Source: Escherichia coli (GTDB taxonomy: Bacteria; Pseudomonadota; Gammaproteobacteria; Enterobacterales; Enterobacteriaceae). Taken from it: a DNA stretch of 64,000 nt. Every line of letters starts with the position of its first letter. Within the stretch, counting starts at the first letter, position 1. Below are positions 9,001 to 12,000 of this stretch, piece by piece. Where the stretch lies: the NCBI RefSeq assembly GCF_045037415.1, contig NZ_CP173440.1; one strand, given 5' to 3'. The position numbers are program-made.

Positions 9001-12000
9001 AACTGAATCAACACACTTATCTGCCGGTGGTTAATGCCGAGTTTGATATCTGTGTCATCAGCTGCGGCAAAGAGTGGTGGTGCTTCAGGCTAGTGGATGT
9101 GAAATCTGATGAACGTCAGGAAGGAATGGTAGCCCGGACGGCATACCGGTTAAACCAGTCAATGGGGATTGCTGAGCAGATGGTTAACATGATCCGCGCC
9201 TGGCAGTCCGTTCCGTACCTTAATCCTCCTGCATCTGACTACTTTAGCTAAACAGGGCCAGCTGGTGGCCCTGTGCATATAGAACGGTGGAAAATGGATG
9301 CGAGCTATTCACGGTACTGCTTGTGGATGACCTCTGAGCGCTTACGCGAAAATAACTTTTTCAGCGCACGGAAGAACAGGGTGGTAGTCAGTAGCGTAAA
9401 ATAGGTCACCCTGTGCGGTACAGATATTGGTTGTCGGTGTTTCAGTTTCAGTGAATAGACGTGACCCAGGTCGGTCAACAGCGTCTGCGGCAGCATTGTT
9501 TTACGCAGGTCATTTTCGATCCAGCCAGTCTCCTCAACACTAAACACGGGCTCAGCATCGTACGCAGTGAACTTGTTCCCGAGGTCATCACAATTACGGC
9601 ACAACCACTCCGGTGCTGGGTCTACCATAAACTTACTGGAGCCCGTCAGTAACACAACATTAACAATACCCTCATCACCCCGCTTTATGGCCCGACACAC
9701 TCCGGATATGTGGGTTTTGTTCTGAACAAACGGGTTTAACATCTTATGTTTCGCTTTACCGAAACCGTATACAACCGTCCATGTTTTATCATCGAGACCA
9801 CCATAAATGTCACCGGTATAGTTTTTCTCTTCGATAATGAAAATACCCTTCGTGCTGATAAAGATATGGTCTATCTGCGTTGTCTGGGAGGCGTTGAGCG
9901 GTAGGGTAATGTCAGATATAAGCGTCCCTTCAAGGTCTGCTAACACCTCCTTTAATGCATTTCGTGTGCGCTGCTCGCTGAACATGTTACTGATAAGCGG
10001 CCAGATGCACAGGATGATGCATGACAGGATCAGCATGACAAACACAAGAAAAATGGTCGACAACATGGTCAGGTCCATCGCTACCTCACTGTGCTGGTGG
10101 TGTGAAGCGCACTGGATACAGCTTCTTTAAGGTTCACGTCCAGTGACAATCCTAACATGCTGCTTAACGATGCTTTTGGCGCGTTGTAGTCGCGAAAACG
10201 CGTGGTGCCGAAGACAATACTCAGGCGTTCACGCACCTCTGTGCTGGTGGCTGTATCATCGATAAGGCCAAACTGCTTCGCACGGTCCCCCAGCCAGAAA
10301 CGCCCCGTGTAGAGCTGTTCTTTGTCCGCCTGTTCACGCGAAAGTAACTTTCCTTTACGCCCGGCTTCGACATCATTGATAAACTGGTCATGCATTTTGT
10401 TGAGTAACTCACTATGCAGAAAGGCCTTGGTTTCGTCATCAATCGGACGCCAGGGGTCAAGCGAGGCCTTCCAGGCTCCGGCCGTCAACGGTTCGTTAGC
10501 CACACCAAGACGGTCCATAATCCTGGACACATCCCAGTGGTCCATACGTACGCCAATACTGCCAATGATGGCGTTGGGATCCGCATAGATCGCATCAGCC
10601 GGTGAGGCTGCGTAATAACAGGCGGAGGCGCACATATTTTTAATACTGACGATGATGGGGCGGACGTCCCGGGCGGCGGCTGGCAGTTTGCCATGCCCAG
10701 AACCCACGGCTTTCAGCAACGCCTGTTTAACCGCTTCAGAGGGCGCTGGTGGCATATCCTTTTTATTCGGGGATGTTGTGGGGTCGGAGTTTTCAATTGT
10801 GAGCCCCGGTACTCCATGGAGGGAGTCGCGAAGCTCGTTTATCTCACGATAAATATTAATAGCGTCAGACGGACCACCGCCGCCAGATTCGGCCTCAATC
10901 AGGATCGCTTTTGCGTGCGGGTTATCCCATGCTTCACGTAAAGCGCGGGCAATAATGACACCGTCGCCTGTAGGCGAGCCAGTACCCATTTCACCATGGA
11001 TACGGATAACCGCGATATGGTCTGCCCCTTTACCGTTTTTCTGTTTATCCTGATACATGGACCAGCCGCTAAAACCTGCAAACCCAATACCAATAATCGT
11101 CAGGGTTATTTTTGATAACACATGCGATTTATACAAACGGTAAAACTTCTTACTTTCACGCGATACCACGTCCTGAACCGAGCCAGTTTCAGGTTTCGAT
11201 GGTCTTTTTTTAAACATATTCTTCCTCACATGAGTTTTTGGTAGTGCGCGAGAAGCCGGTTAATTGCAATAGCGAGCAACGCCAGGGCAAGTGGCGGAAA
11301 ATACTGTGTCAGTCCATAAAATAAATTCATGTTAGGGATGACCAGATAAGCAATTATCAAAACACCGATTATCGACAGCGAACGGAACCAGAGGCGATAA
11401 AGCTGAATTGTAACATCGCCAAAAACAAATCTCTTCATTTTCCACTGGTAATAACCATCCAGTGCCAGAGCTATCATCAGAGGGAGGAATGTAAAAAACC
11501 ATCCAGCCAGCAAATACCAGCGGTAAATCGCCTGATACACCATTAACGGGATGTTTCGGGCAGCGGTATAGCTCGGGCTCATGAATTTGTTTGCCGCGAG
11601 ATTCATTCCGCGTGCCGGTTTGGTTTTATCATCCTCAGGCAAAAGAGTCTTATTCAGGTAAGCCGTAATGTTTAGTTCGACAAAAAGGTAATTAAACGTC
11701 TTTTCCGTATTACGCGTTACCTCCTGCCATCTATCCACATCCATAAGCAACTTACTGGCGTTCACCTCAGCGGTGATATCCTTATAAAGTTTGTTAGTGT
11801 CTTCCAGGTAAACGTTAAACAGAAAATAAATCAGCAGACCCAACCCTAATCCAAACCGGATCATCGTCATTCTCTGCGCCGACATATCCTTTCCAGCCAT
11901 TTTACACCTCTGTCAGTCAGTTTTATTAGTGAACAGCTCTGCCCAAAGGGCTGCCAGGCGAATGTTGCTTTCTCTGTTGAGGTAATGATTTTTCCAGCCG

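What the first reader, a model, noticed from the sequence alone, without database searches (positions are those of the whole stretch)
9305..11229. SppA-like S49 peptidase and membrane-anchored NERD nuclease-domain protein appended to the traJ-like/coupling-protein operon
The two genes are separated by 3 bp and directly follow the traJ-like gene on the same strand. Neither is a canonical transfer gene to my knowledge; a membrane peptidase plus a NERD-domain protein co-transcribed with the coupling protein could act in pilin processing or in processing of incoming DNA.
Basis: inference. Interest (0 to 1): 0.4.

Follow-up and report, generated by a model that had tools for sequence, protein, structure and literature searches.

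The report
Peptidase and nuclease genes ending IncHI transfer operon
Two real, already annotated accessory genes, a periplasm-facing SppA-like protease and a membrane-tethered NERD nuclease, close the relaxase/coupling-protein operon of a common Klebsiella IncHI-family plasmid; they are conserved and under selection but of untested function, so the finding is largely ordinary.

Summary
On the minus strand, an S49 peptidase gene (10081-11217) and a NERD gene (9305-10078) follow the traJ/dtrJ gene with gaps of 8 and 2 nt. They end a tightly packed eight-gene operon: mobI, hyp, traI(MobH), traD, hyp, dtrJ, S49, NERD.

The DNA is 100% identical to many published Klebsiella IncHI1B/IncFIB plasmids, where both genes are already annotated. 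IncHI1 R27 and IncHI2 plasmids have the same gene order.

Both proteins keep their catalytic residues: S49 Ser198/Lys250, and NERD E35/D70/E83/K85. Both are under purifying selection as strong as the coupling protein's (dN/dS 0.065 and 0.096).

They do not look like a functional pair.
- Charge bias puts the protease domain in the periplasm and the nuclease domain in the cytoplasm.
- S49 follows dtrJ in distant marine and Shewanella MOBH plasmids that lack NERD.
- NERD is an IncHI-specific addition.
- IncC, Aliivibrio and Rts1 relatives have neither gene at this position.

From memory of the R27 Tra1 mutagenesis, both are probably dispensable for laboratory transfer.

Most likely roles, both inferred:
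- S49 is an envelope housekeeping protease, redundant with host SppA/SohB.
- NERD cuts nucleic acid at the inner membrane.

Low novelty, low interest.

The parts
10081..11217 (-). S49 family (SppA-like) serine/lysine peptidase, 378 aa. It has an N-in single-pass membrane anchor (about residues 33-55), a predicted periplasmic catalytic domain with Ser198/Lys250, and an IncHI-specific insert of about 55 aa (about residues 133-185).
   Evidence: Pfam PF01343 E=6.7e-32. Alignment to B. subtilis SppA 3RST/4KWB, with Ser147 and Lys199 matched. S198 and K250 are invariant in 29 homologues. AF2 model pLDDT 82, best PDB match BsSppA with target-normalised TM 0.83-0.88. K/R bias is N-in in 29/29. dN/dS 0.065. 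Alternative GTG start at 11229.
9305..10078 (-). Membrane-anchored NERD (PD-(D/E)xK fold) nuclease-domain protein, 257 aa. It has an N-terminal transmembrane helix (about residues 5-31), a predicted cytoplasmic nuclease domain (E35, D70, E83, K85), and a basic amphipathic C-terminal helix (220-256).
11226..11900 (-). dtrJ/traJ-like polytopic membrane protein (DUF4400), directly upstream of S49.
   Evidence: Pfam PF14348 E=1.1e-11. Annotated as a DUF4400 domain-containing protein in identical records.
11913..13010 (-). Conserved hypothetical gene (365 aa) between the coupling-protein gene and dtrJ, with no family match.
   Evidence: No Pfam hit. The same position is occupied in R27, IncHI2, marine contigs and the Shewanella plasmid, where the gene is shorter at 176-212 aa.
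13013..15139 (-). traD, the type IV coupling protein.
   Evidence: Pfam TrwB_AAD_bind and TraG-D_C. Annotated as traD.
15129..18062 (-). traI, the MobH-family relaxase.
   Evidence: Pfam TraI_2 E=2e-31. Annotated as MobH family relaxase.
18076..19328 (-). mobI (18864-19328) and a conserved hypothetical gene (18076-18864), the first two genes of the operon.
   Evidence: Annotated as MobI(A/C) and hypothetical. The same order is seen in R27, IncHI2 and marine relatives.
9252..9274 (.). 9-bp GC-rich hairpin in the 53-nt gap between the converging NERD gene and ORF 8895-9251. It is a possible shared terminator; the U-tract is weak.
   Evidence: Sequence. RNA fold: centroid structure (the hairpin alone) -16.4 kcal/mol; the 65-nt stretch has MFE -17.3 kcal/mol, z=-2.4 against shuffles. 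The consensus terminator scan did not call it.

Best explanation
The two genes are the last two cistrons of the eight-gene DNA-transfer (Dtr) operon of an IncHI-family (MOBH/MPF_F) plasmid. They are accessory rather than core transfer genes. They most likely act independently, on opposite faces of the inner membrane.

S49. Shown: it is an intact SppA-type Ser198/Lys250 protease. Predicted: an N-in membrane anchor and a periplasmic catalytic domain. Inferred: it is a plasmid-borne envelope housekeeping protease. When the membrane-embedded transfer machinery (pilin pool, T4SS, TraD-DtrJ) is expressed, it would clear released leader peptides or misassembled membrane proteins. It would be functionally redundant with host SppA/SohB, and therefore dispensable in standard matings.

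NERD. Shown: it has a PD-(D/E)xK nuclease fold with a complete E-D-ExK catalytic set, and a single N-terminal transmembrane helix running straight into the catalytic helix. Predicted: the domain sits on the cytoplasmic face of the inner membrane. Inferred: it cuts nucleic acid right at the membrane where the coupling protein and DtrJ sit. Foreign or incoming nucleic acid is the more likely target than the plasmid's own T-strand. It was added once in the enterobacterial IncHI lineage.
For: Identity and integrity:
- Pfam hits for both proteins.
- S49 catalytic residues match BsSppA S147/K199 and are invariant in homologues. NERD E35/D70/E83 are invariant and K85 is at least 90% conserved in homologues.

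Operon membership:
- All eight genes are on one strand, with gaps of 13 nt or less or short overlaps. A hairpin appears only after NERD.

Selection:
- dN/dS is 0.065 for S49 and 0.096 for NERD, against 0.058 for traD and 0.086 for dtrJ.
- S49 is as conserved between this plasmid and R27 (47%) as TraD (46%) and DtrJ (47%).

Distribution:
- The same eight-gene order occurs in R27, IncHI2 pS70, pKp6001 and a metagenomic relative.
- In PLSDB, the numbers of records with at least 80% coverage are nearly equal: dtrJ 1817, NERD 1819, S49 1897.
- S49 directly follows dtrJ without NERD in Tara, JGI and Logan contigs and in Shewanella algae pKC-Na-R1.
- In IncC, S49 sits next to dsbA. In another MPF_F plasmid contig it sits next to an OmpA-like gene, which points to an envelope theme.

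Topology:
- K/R bias gives S49 as N-in in 29/29 sequences, and only 2 of 59 NERD-family sequences scored N-in (N-out for most).

Precedent for redundant, plasmid-borne envelope helpers:
- The R27 dsbC phenotype is seen only in dsbC-null hosts, and Rts1 needs its own LepB homologue (PMC10838148).

Non-essentiality:
- R27 Tra1 has 14 ORFs (PMC12115866), which matches the ORF count in the R27 annotation only if the S49 and NERD genes are included.
- From memory of the Lawley 2002 abstract, only 9 of the 14 were needed for transfer, and only four of those (traH, traI, traG, traJ) lie on this side of oriT.
Against: - No functional data for either protein were found. No paper in the searchable library links S49 or NERD to IncH plasmids.
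- The constant dtrJ-S49 adjacency across deep lineages could mean a specific DtrJ/TraD-related role rather than general housekeeping.
- Strong purifying selection fits poorly with simple redundancy.
- Topology comes from a hydropathy and positive-inside count only, not from a dedicated predictor or an experiment.
- The non-essentiality in R27 rests on my memory of an abstract plus ORF counting; the paper could not be read.
- Single-condition mating assays can miss conditional phenotypes, as seen for the IncC Big protein, which matters at 25 C but not at 37 C (PMC8730810).
Confidence: 0.5

Rival explanations
1. The NERD protein is a gatekeeper nuclease. Tethered to the cytoplasmic face of the inner membrane beside the coupling protein and DtrJ, it would cut foreign single-stranded nucleic acid that enters through or next to the transfer apparatus. 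Targets could be genomes of H-pilus-specific RNA phages or DNA of competing plasmids. It would thus offset the vulnerability created by making conjugative pili.
For: - It has a complete catalytic set, and the membrane helix runs directly into the catalytic E35 helix, holding the active site at the membrane.
- It is co-transcribed with traD and dtrJ.
- It is IncHI-specific.
- A second, unrelated NERD gene sits inside an F-type tra operon in Photobacterium pdp2.
- ZwsA, a multidomain protein with a predicted NERD domain, was reported as an RNA endonuclease selective for RNA-phage genomes; NERD-domain point mutations abolished its defence (bioRxiv 10.64898/2026.04.06.716636).
- From memory: IncH pili have specific RNA phages (pilH-alpha, Hgal1), and some F-specific RNA phages need TraD for genome entry.
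Against: - No PADLOC match; the only defence-family similarity is a weak NCBIfam hit to MAD6, 21.5 bits against a cut-off of 460.
- ZwsA is a large multidomain protein with a different architecture.
- There is no evidence on substrate.
- The R27 exclusion determinants are other genes, EexA and EexB (PMC11493245).
- Marine relatives with the same operon do without NERD.
Confidence: 0.12
2. S49 and NERD form one two-gene functional module, such as a protease-controlled nuclease, a toxin/regulator pair or a defence system, that rides on the transfer operon.
For: They lie 2 nt apart and are always together in IncHI1, IncHI2 and IncHI1B-type plasmids and in one metagenomic relative.
Against: - The predicted catalytic domains are in different compartments.
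- S49 occurs after dtrJ without NERD in at least four other lineages.
- NERD homologues occur without S49.
- The two diverge at different rates: 47% against 30% identity to R27.
- Neither has a PADLOC hit.
Confidence: 0.08
3. S49 is a dedicated processing or turnover protease for a component of the DNA-transfer machinery, for example a periplasmic loop of DtrJ, TraD or the neighbouring conserved hypothetical protein. It would not be a general housekeeping enzyme and not a pilin maturase.
For: - S49 lies immediately downstream of dtrJ in IncHI, Shewanella and three metagenomic lineages at only 28-34% identity.
- Its conservation tracks TraD and DtrJ.
- dN/dS is very low at 0.065.
- It scores below the SppA and SohB equivalog cut-offs, so it is not simply a copy of the host enzymes.
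- It carries an IncHI-specific insert and a conserved C-terminal tail.
Against: - In IncC the S49 gene lies about 48 kb from dtrJ, beside dsbA.
- Aliivibrio and Rts1 relatives have DtrJ and no adjacent S49.
- It is probably dispensable in R27 (from memory).
Confidence: 0.2
4. S49 is the pilin-maturation peptidase of the H-type pilus, which is the first reader's 'pilin processing' idea taken strictly.
For: It is a membrane-anchored periplasmic protease encoded in a transfer region.
Against: - Related systems use S26-family peptidases for this step: TrhP in R27, and TrhF/Orf215 and the LepB-like Orf185 in Rts1 (PMC10838148).
- The gene sits with Dtr genes, not pilin genes.
- S49 is absent from relatives with the same MPF_F pilus genes.
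- Pilin maturation would be essential, yet the R27 homologue is probably dispensable (from memory).
Confidence: 0.05

Closest known systems
Tra1 'H operon' ORFs of IncHI1 plasmid R27 and IncHI2 plasmids (R478 type): the S49 and NERD genes downstream of traJ
   Same: The gene order is identical: mobI(traH), hyp, traI, traD(traG), hyp, traJ/dtrJ, S49, NERD. The proteins are 47% (S49) and 30% (NERD) identical to R27's. Membrane anchors and catalytic residues are the same.
   Different: This is a different IncHI sublineage, the IncHI1B/IncFIB(Mar) pNDM-MAR-like plasmids of Klebsiella. Sequences have diverged and the S49 insert sequence differs.
Signal peptide peptidase A, 36K type (B. subtilis SppA, PDB 3RST/4KWB) and E. 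coli SohB
   Same: S49 fold with target-normalised TM 0.83-0.88. Ser/Lys dyad at equivalent positions. Single N-terminal membrane anchor with an extracytoplasmic domain.
   Different: Only about 20% identity. Scores fall below the NCBIfam equivalog cut-offs for SppA (124 against 155 bits) and SohB (65 against 259). It carries an extra insert of about 55 aa that is partly disordered. It is plasmid-encoded within a DNA-transfer operon.
S49 peptidase of IncC (A/C) plasmids
   Same: An S49 family member on a MOBH/MPF_F conjugative plasmid with the same dyad, 29% identical.
   Different: It lies downstream of repA next to dsbA, about 48 kb from traI-traD-dtrJ. It lacks the insert and has no NERD neighbour.
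Single-transmembrane NERD proteins (PF08378), including the pXO1 and Bacillus plasmid NERD proteins and the NERD gene in the Photobacterium damselae pdp2 F-type tra operon
   Same: A transmembrane helix plus a NERD domain of about 200-260 aa, with the conserved motifs TTQ(I/V)DH, (I/V)ExK and QNPxxQNxxH. The family is large: 4968 representatives at E<=1e-3. One member is also embedded in a conjugation operon.
   Different: Only the IncHI clade reaches E<=1e-30 and sits behind S49/dtrJ. No member has a demonstrated function.
ZwsA (Zowangsin), an anti-RNA-phage RNA endonuclease with a predicted NERD domain
   Same: It carries a predicted NERD domain, and four NERD-domain point mutants (E535, D567, E580, K582) impaired its defence.
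   Different: ZwsA is a large soluble multidomain protein (VHS, DUF647, NERD, S4) from Pseudomonas. The IncHI protein is a small membrane-anchored single-domain protein.

Membership tests
Peptidase family S49 (SppA-like, clan SK) | Match to the family profile above the curated threshold | tested here: met
   PF01343 at 111 bits against a cut-off of 24.9, E=6.7e-32.
Peptidase family S49 (SppA-like, clan SK) | Catalytic Ser/Lys dyad at the positions of B. subtilis SppA Ser147 and Lys199 | tested here: met
   Ser198 (..MCASACYY..) and Lys250 (..AGAWKAS..) align to S147 and to position 199 of 4KWB/3RST, which reads Ala in those chains and is taken to be a K199A mutant by residue counting plus memory. 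Both residues are invariant in 29 homologues.
Peptidase family S49 (SppA-like, clan SK) | SppA fold | tested here: met
   The AF2 model (pLDDT 82) best matches 3RST/4KWB (E about 1e-19, target-normalised TM 0.83-0.88), then E. coli SppA 3BF0.
SppA 36K / SohB orthologue (equivalog) | Score above the NCBIfam equivalog cut-off | tested here: not met
   TIGR00706 SppA_dom 124 against 155 bits. SohB NF008745 64.7 against 259. SppA_67K 89.5 against 311. It is a family member but not an orthologue of the host enzymes.
Peptidase family S49 (SppA-like, clan SK) | Proteolytic activity and dome-shaped oligomer | not testable with these tools
   Needs purified protein.
NERD / PD-(D/E)xK nuclease superfamily | Match to the NERD profile above threshold | tested here: met
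   PF08378 at 74.1 bits against a cut-off of 22.1, E=1.7e-20.
NERD / PD-(D/E)xK nuclease superfamily | Catalytic E ... D ... (D/E)xK residues conserved | tested here: met
   E35, D70 and E83 are invariant and K85 is at least 90% conserved in a 59-sequence family alignment.
NERD / PD-(D/E)xK nuclease superfamily | Restriction-endonuclease-like fold | tested here: met
NERD / PD-(D/E)xK nuclease superfamily | Nuclease activity and substrate (DNA or RNA) | not testable with these tools
   No solved or assayed close relative; phmmer against PDB sequences found nothing meaningful.
Core (essential, universally conserved) Dtr genes of MOBH conjugative elements | Present at this position in all MOBH/MPF_F relatives | tested here: not met
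   Absent after dtrJ in IncC pPG010208, Aliivibrio pRVS1-224 and Rts1 (gene table in PMC10838148). NERD is also absent from the Shewanella plasmid and from the two marine lineages whose DNA continues past S49 (Tara L010/L011, JGI L012). The Logan contig L016 ends about 100 nt after S49 and cannot be scored.
Core (essential, universally conserved) Dtr genes of MOBH conjugative elements | Required for transfer | not testable with these tools
   The R27 Tra1 mutagenesis paper (Lawley 2002, PMC134963) is not held. From memory of its abstract, 9 of 14 ORFs are essential and these two are not among them.
Known anti-phage defence systems (PADLOC-DB v2) | Match to any defence-system protein model | tested here: not met
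   No hit at E<=0.01 for either protein. There is only a sub-threshold NCBIfam MAD6 similarity for the NERD region.

The most novel reading that the evidence does not exclude
The NERD protein may be a membrane-gate nuclease that conjugative IncH plasmids carry to protect their own entry point. Anchored beside the coupling protein and DtrJ, it would destroy single-stranded nucleic acid that exploits the pilus or T4SS route, such as H-pilus-specific RNA phage genomes or rival plasmids' T-strands. That would be a plasmid-encoded, transfer-operon-embedded defence against male-specific phages. No such system has been described for conjugative plasmids, to my knowledge.
Probability: 0.1. Interest if true: 0.6.

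Novelty: already known. Interest (0 to 1): 0.2.

Why it matters
IncHI-family plasmids (R27, R478, pNDM-MAR-like) are major carriers of multidrug resistance and, in Klebsiella, of hypervirulence genes. Two enzymes are kept under selection as strong as the coupling protein's in about 1800 sequenced plasmids, yet they have no known role.

If the S49 protease supports assembly or turnover of the transfer machinery, it is a druggable periplasmic serine protease. If the NERD nuclease guards the transfer gate against pilus-specific phages or rival plasmids, it would affect phage-based anti-plasmid strategies and plasmid competition.

As it stands, the finding only re-identifies annotated genes in a published operon.

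Tried and rejected
- **Defence-system membership.** PADLOC gave no hits for S49, NERD or the two neighbouring hypotheticals.
- **Solved structure for NERD by sequence.** Only spurious TRIM33 matches appeared.
- **DtrJ-S49 fusion as a Rosetta-stone link.** The 509-aa protein P0185 is a singleton caused by a 1-nt frameshift in an IncHI2 sequence, so it is not evidence of a link.
- **NERD in the marine relatives.** The 299-aa protein after S49 in L012 is not NERD: no Pfam hit and hhalign probability 0.1%.
- **Contexts of the nearest non-IncHI NERD relatives.** The contigs for P0031 and P0033 were too short to be informative. P0020 sits in an unrelated chromosomal-looking context.
- **Second match per record.** One search reported two places in each record. 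The second is a paralogue of the neighbouring small ORF, not of the finding.
- **Literature.** No paper was found linking S49, SppA or NERD to IncH plasmids or conjugation. The key R27 Tra1 paper could not be read. The R27 deletion study left out the transfer regions.
- **Entry exclusion as the function.** I considered and set this aside because R27 exclusion is assigned to EexA and EexB.
- **Phage prohead protease origin for S49.** I considered and rejected this because the best sequence and structure matches are membrane SppA enzymes and the protein has an N-terminal anchor.
- **Genome-wide DtrJ scan.** I did not run the expensive genome-contig scan. About ten independent lineages already gave a consistent synteny picture.
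Full report
**What is there**

The region lies on the minus strand. Eight ORFs run head to tail:

| Gene | Coordinates | Note |
|---|---|---|
| mobI | 19328-18864 | |
| hypothetical | 18864-18076 | conserved |
| traI | 18062-15129 | MobH relaxase |
| traD | 15139-13013 | coupling protein |
| hypothetical | 13010-11913 | 365 aa |
| dtrJ/traJ | 11900-11226 | DUF4400 |
| S49 peptidase | 11217-10081 | |
| NERD protein | 10078-9305 | |

All junctions are overlaps or gaps of 13 nt or less.

- The likelier S49 start is ATG 11217. It has GAGGAAG 5-6 nt upstream and is the PGAP start.
- NERD starts at ATG 10078, 2 nt after the S49 stop, with GAGG 5 nt upstream.
- After NERD there is a 53-nt gap to a converging ORF. 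The gap holds a 9-bp GC-rich hairpin at 9252-9274; the centroid structure with the hairpin alone is -16.4 kcal/mol, and the 65-nt stretch folds better than shuffles (z=-2.4).
- Pfam confirms the domains: NERD E=1.7e-20, Peptidase_S49 E=6.7e-32, DUF4400 E=1.1e-11, plus coupling-protein and TraI_2 domains.

**Where the window comes from**

The 4.1 kb around the finding is 100% identical to many Klebsiella pneumoniae plasmids of 200-430 kb. These are typed IncFIB/IncHI1B, MOBH, MPF_F. In them the genes are already annotated as 'S49 family peptidase' and 'NERD/nuclease-related domain-containing protein'. In all, 626 PLSDB records match and 319 of them are at least 99% identical.

**Are the enzymes intact?**

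S49:
- It aligns to B. subtilis SppA (3RST/4KWB). Its Ser198 sits in MCASACYY opposite catalytic Ser147. Its Lys250 sits in AGAWKAS opposite position 199, which is Ala in those chains; I take this to be a K199A mutant from residue counting plus memory.
- Both residues are invariant in 29 homologues that go down to 22% identity.
- The AlphaFold model (pLDDT 82) best matches SppA structures, with target-normalised TM 0.83-0.88.
- It scores below the NCBIfam equivalog cut-offs for SppA and SohB. It is therefore a family member, not a copy of the host enzymes.
- IncHI-type proteins carry an extra insert of about 55 residues (roughly 133-185). The model shows it as partly disordered. They also share a conserved C-terminal tail.

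NERD:
- An exhaustive search found 4968 cluster representatives at E<=1e-3. Only the IncHI clade reaches E<=1e-30.
- In a 59-sequence alignment, E35, D70 and E83 are invariant and K85 is nearly so. That is the full PD-(D/E)xK set.

**Topology (predicted only)**

- S49 has a basic N-terminus, then a moderately hydrophobic segment. K/R counts give N-in for 29/29 homologues, so the protease domain should face the periplasm, as in SppA and SohB.
- NERD has a strongly hydrophobic helix at residues 5-31. Only 2 of 59 family members scored N-in on K/R counts; most scored N-out. The nuclease domain should therefore be cytoplasmic.
- The NERD transmembrane helix continues directly into the helix that carries E35. 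The C-terminal helix (220-256) is basic and not hydrophobic enough to span the membrane.
- The two catalytic domains are thus predicted on opposite sides of the inner membrane.

**Selection**

I compared the operon with the one in pKp6001, which is 78-92% identical in protein.

| Gene | dN/dS |
|---|---|
| traD | 0.058 |
| S49 | 0.065 |
| dtrJ | 0.086 |
| NERD | 0.096 |
| traI | 0.168 |

Against R27, S49 (47% identity) is as conserved as TraD (46%) and DtrJ (47%). NERD (30%) diverges like TraI (31%) and MobI (27%). Both genes have been inherited with the operon and are functionally constrained.

| Element | After dtrJ | S49 | NERD | Calls |
|---|---|---|---|---|
| IncHI1 R27, IncHI2 pS70, pKp6001 | S49, NERD (same eight-gene order) | yes | yes | 19, 11, 51 |
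| Metagenomic relative (NERD 36% identical) | S49, NERD | yes | yes | 34 |
| Two Tara/ENA marine contigs | S49 | yes | no | 43 |
| JGI contig | S49, then an unrelated protein | yes | no | 44, 58, 59 |
| Logan contig | S49 (contig ends about 100 nt after S49) | yes | cannot tell | 55 |
| Shewanella algae pKC-Na-R1 | S49, then traL-traE-traK | yes | no | 66 |
| Aliivibrio pRVS1-224 | other genes | no | no | 67 |
| IncC pPG010208 | other genes; S49 homologue (29%) about 48 kb away beside dsbA | elsewhere | no | 80, 12 |
| Rts1 | other genes | no | no | 15 (PMC10838148) |

- Another MPF_F plasmid contig pairs S49 with an OmpA-like gene.
- A chromosomal S49 homologue was also seen.
- NERD homologues occur alone on other plasmids. 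In one small Photobacterium lineage a NERD gene sits inside an F-type tra operon between traW and traU.
- In PLSDB the numbers of records with near-full-length hits are almost equal: dtrJ 1817, NERD 1819, S49 1897.

My reading is that S49 is an old, lineage-restricted member of the MOBH11-type Dtr operon. NERD was added once in the enterobacterial IncHI ancestor. Neither is universal.

**What is known experimentally**

I found no paper that discusses these two genes.

The R27 Tra1 region is reported to contain 14 ORFs (PMC12115866 citing Lawley 2002). Counting ORFs in the R27 annotation gives 14 only if the S49 and NERD genes are included. From memory of the Lawley 2002 abstract, disruption of 9 of the 14 abolished transfer. 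The four essential genes on this side of oriT were traH, traI, traG and traJ. So the S49 and NERD homologues are probably dispensable in laboratory matings. The paper itself could not be read, so this stays a recollection plus an inference.

Two caveats come from papers I could read:
- The R27 dsbC phenotype appears only in dsbC-null hosts, and Rts1 needs its own LepB-like peptidase (PMC10838148).
- An IncC gene scored as irrelevant at 37 C matters at 25 C (PMC8730810).

R27 exclusion is assigned to EexA and EexB, not to these genes (PMC11493245).

**Most likely mechanism**

Shown: both proteins are intact enzymes, they are encoded at the end of one tightly packed, same-strand gene cluster with the relaxase, coupling protein and DtrJ genes (co-transcription is inferred, not measured), and they are under purifying selection.

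Predicted: they are membrane-anchored, with domains on opposite sides of the membrane.

Inferred:
- S49 acts as a plasmid-borne envelope housekeeping protease. It would degrade released leader peptides or misassembled membrane proteins when the transfer apparatus is expressed. It would be one of the envelope helpers that these large plasmids carry (DsbA, DsbC, S26 peptidases) and would be partly redundant with host SppA/SohB.
- NERD cuts nucleic acid at the cytoplasmic face of the membrane next to TraD and DtrJ. Its target is more probably foreign or incoming nucleic acid than the plasmid's own DNA.
- The two do not form a functional pair.

Rivals:
- A dedicated DtrJ/TraD-related role for S49 is favoured by the deep dtrJ-S49 adjacency and disfavoured by the IncC arrangement.
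- A two-gene module is disfavoured by topology and distribution, and neither protein has a PADLOC hit.
- A pilin maturase role is disfavoured because S26 peptidases do that job.

**Most novel reading not excluded**

NERD may be a gate nuclease against pilus-specific phages or rival plasmids. A recent preprint reports that a Pseudomonas protein with a predicted NERD domain is an RNA endonuclease selective for RNA-phage genomes. From memory, IncH pili have their own RNA phages, and some F-specific RNA phages need the coupling protein for genome entry. Nothing here tests this. I put it at about 10%.

**Verdict**

However, they are already annotated in hundreds of identical records and lie within a published, mutagenised operon. 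Novelty is low, and interest is low to modest. The value added here is threefold:
- the pair is probably two independent accessory functions;
- S49 is an ancient companion of dtrJ in one MOBH branch;
- NERD is an IncHI-specific addition.

Noticed in passing
window 8895-9251 (+) and 29531-29887 (+): The small hypothetical gene that converges on NERD (118 aa, no Pfam hit) has a near-identical paralogue about 20 kb away. The 3' 253 nt are 94% identical. This explains the 'two places per record' reported in the first similarity search.
   Followed up: partly
window 11913-13010 (-): A 365-aa protein with no family match always sits between the coupling-protein gene and dtrJ in IncHI plasmids. A shorter gene (176-212 aa) holds the same position in the marine, Shewanella and IncC relatives, but not in the Aliivibrio plasmid. 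It may be an uncharacterised Dtr component.
   Followed up: partly
window 10081-11217 (-), protein residues about 133-185 and 356-378: IncHI-type S49 proteins carry an insert of about 55 residues with variable sequence. The first half is disordered in the model and a confident helix sits at 161-173. The marine and IncC homologues lack the insert. They also share a C-terminal tail ending in a conserved ...P..R; in B. subtilis SppA the C-terminus is self-processed and occupies the active site.
   Followed up: partly
L006 9710-10531 (Photobacterium damselae pdp2): An unrelated transmembrane-plus-NERD gene lies inside an F-type (MOBF/MPF_F) tra operon between traW and traU. This is a second, independent recruitment of NERD into a conjugation operon. 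Only about 4 plasmids carry this version.
   Followed up: partly
L003 8232-10067 (IncC pPG010208); L013 8476-9942: On other MPF_F plasmids the S49 gene is paired with envelope genes. In IncC it is directly followed by dsbA, in a long operon that also holds a thermonuclease gene. In a metagenomic plasmid contig it follows an OmpA-like gene.
   Followed up: no
window 1-9251 (+ strand genes): Downstream of the operon lies a run of plus-strand genes: umuC, an Xre/RES toxin-antitoxin pair, hok, and several hypotheticals. All point towards the presumed oriT region near 19.4-19.9 kb. The content and orientation resemble a plasmid leading region, and R27 and IncHI2 show a similar block with hok and DUF905.
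   Followed up: no
P0185 (Logan contig); L002 10740-10830: A 509-aa DtrJ-S49 'fusion' protein in the database is a singleton produced by a 1-nt deletion just before the dtrJ stop in an IncHI2 sequence. It is probably an assembly or sequencing error, not a natural fusion.
   Followed up: yes
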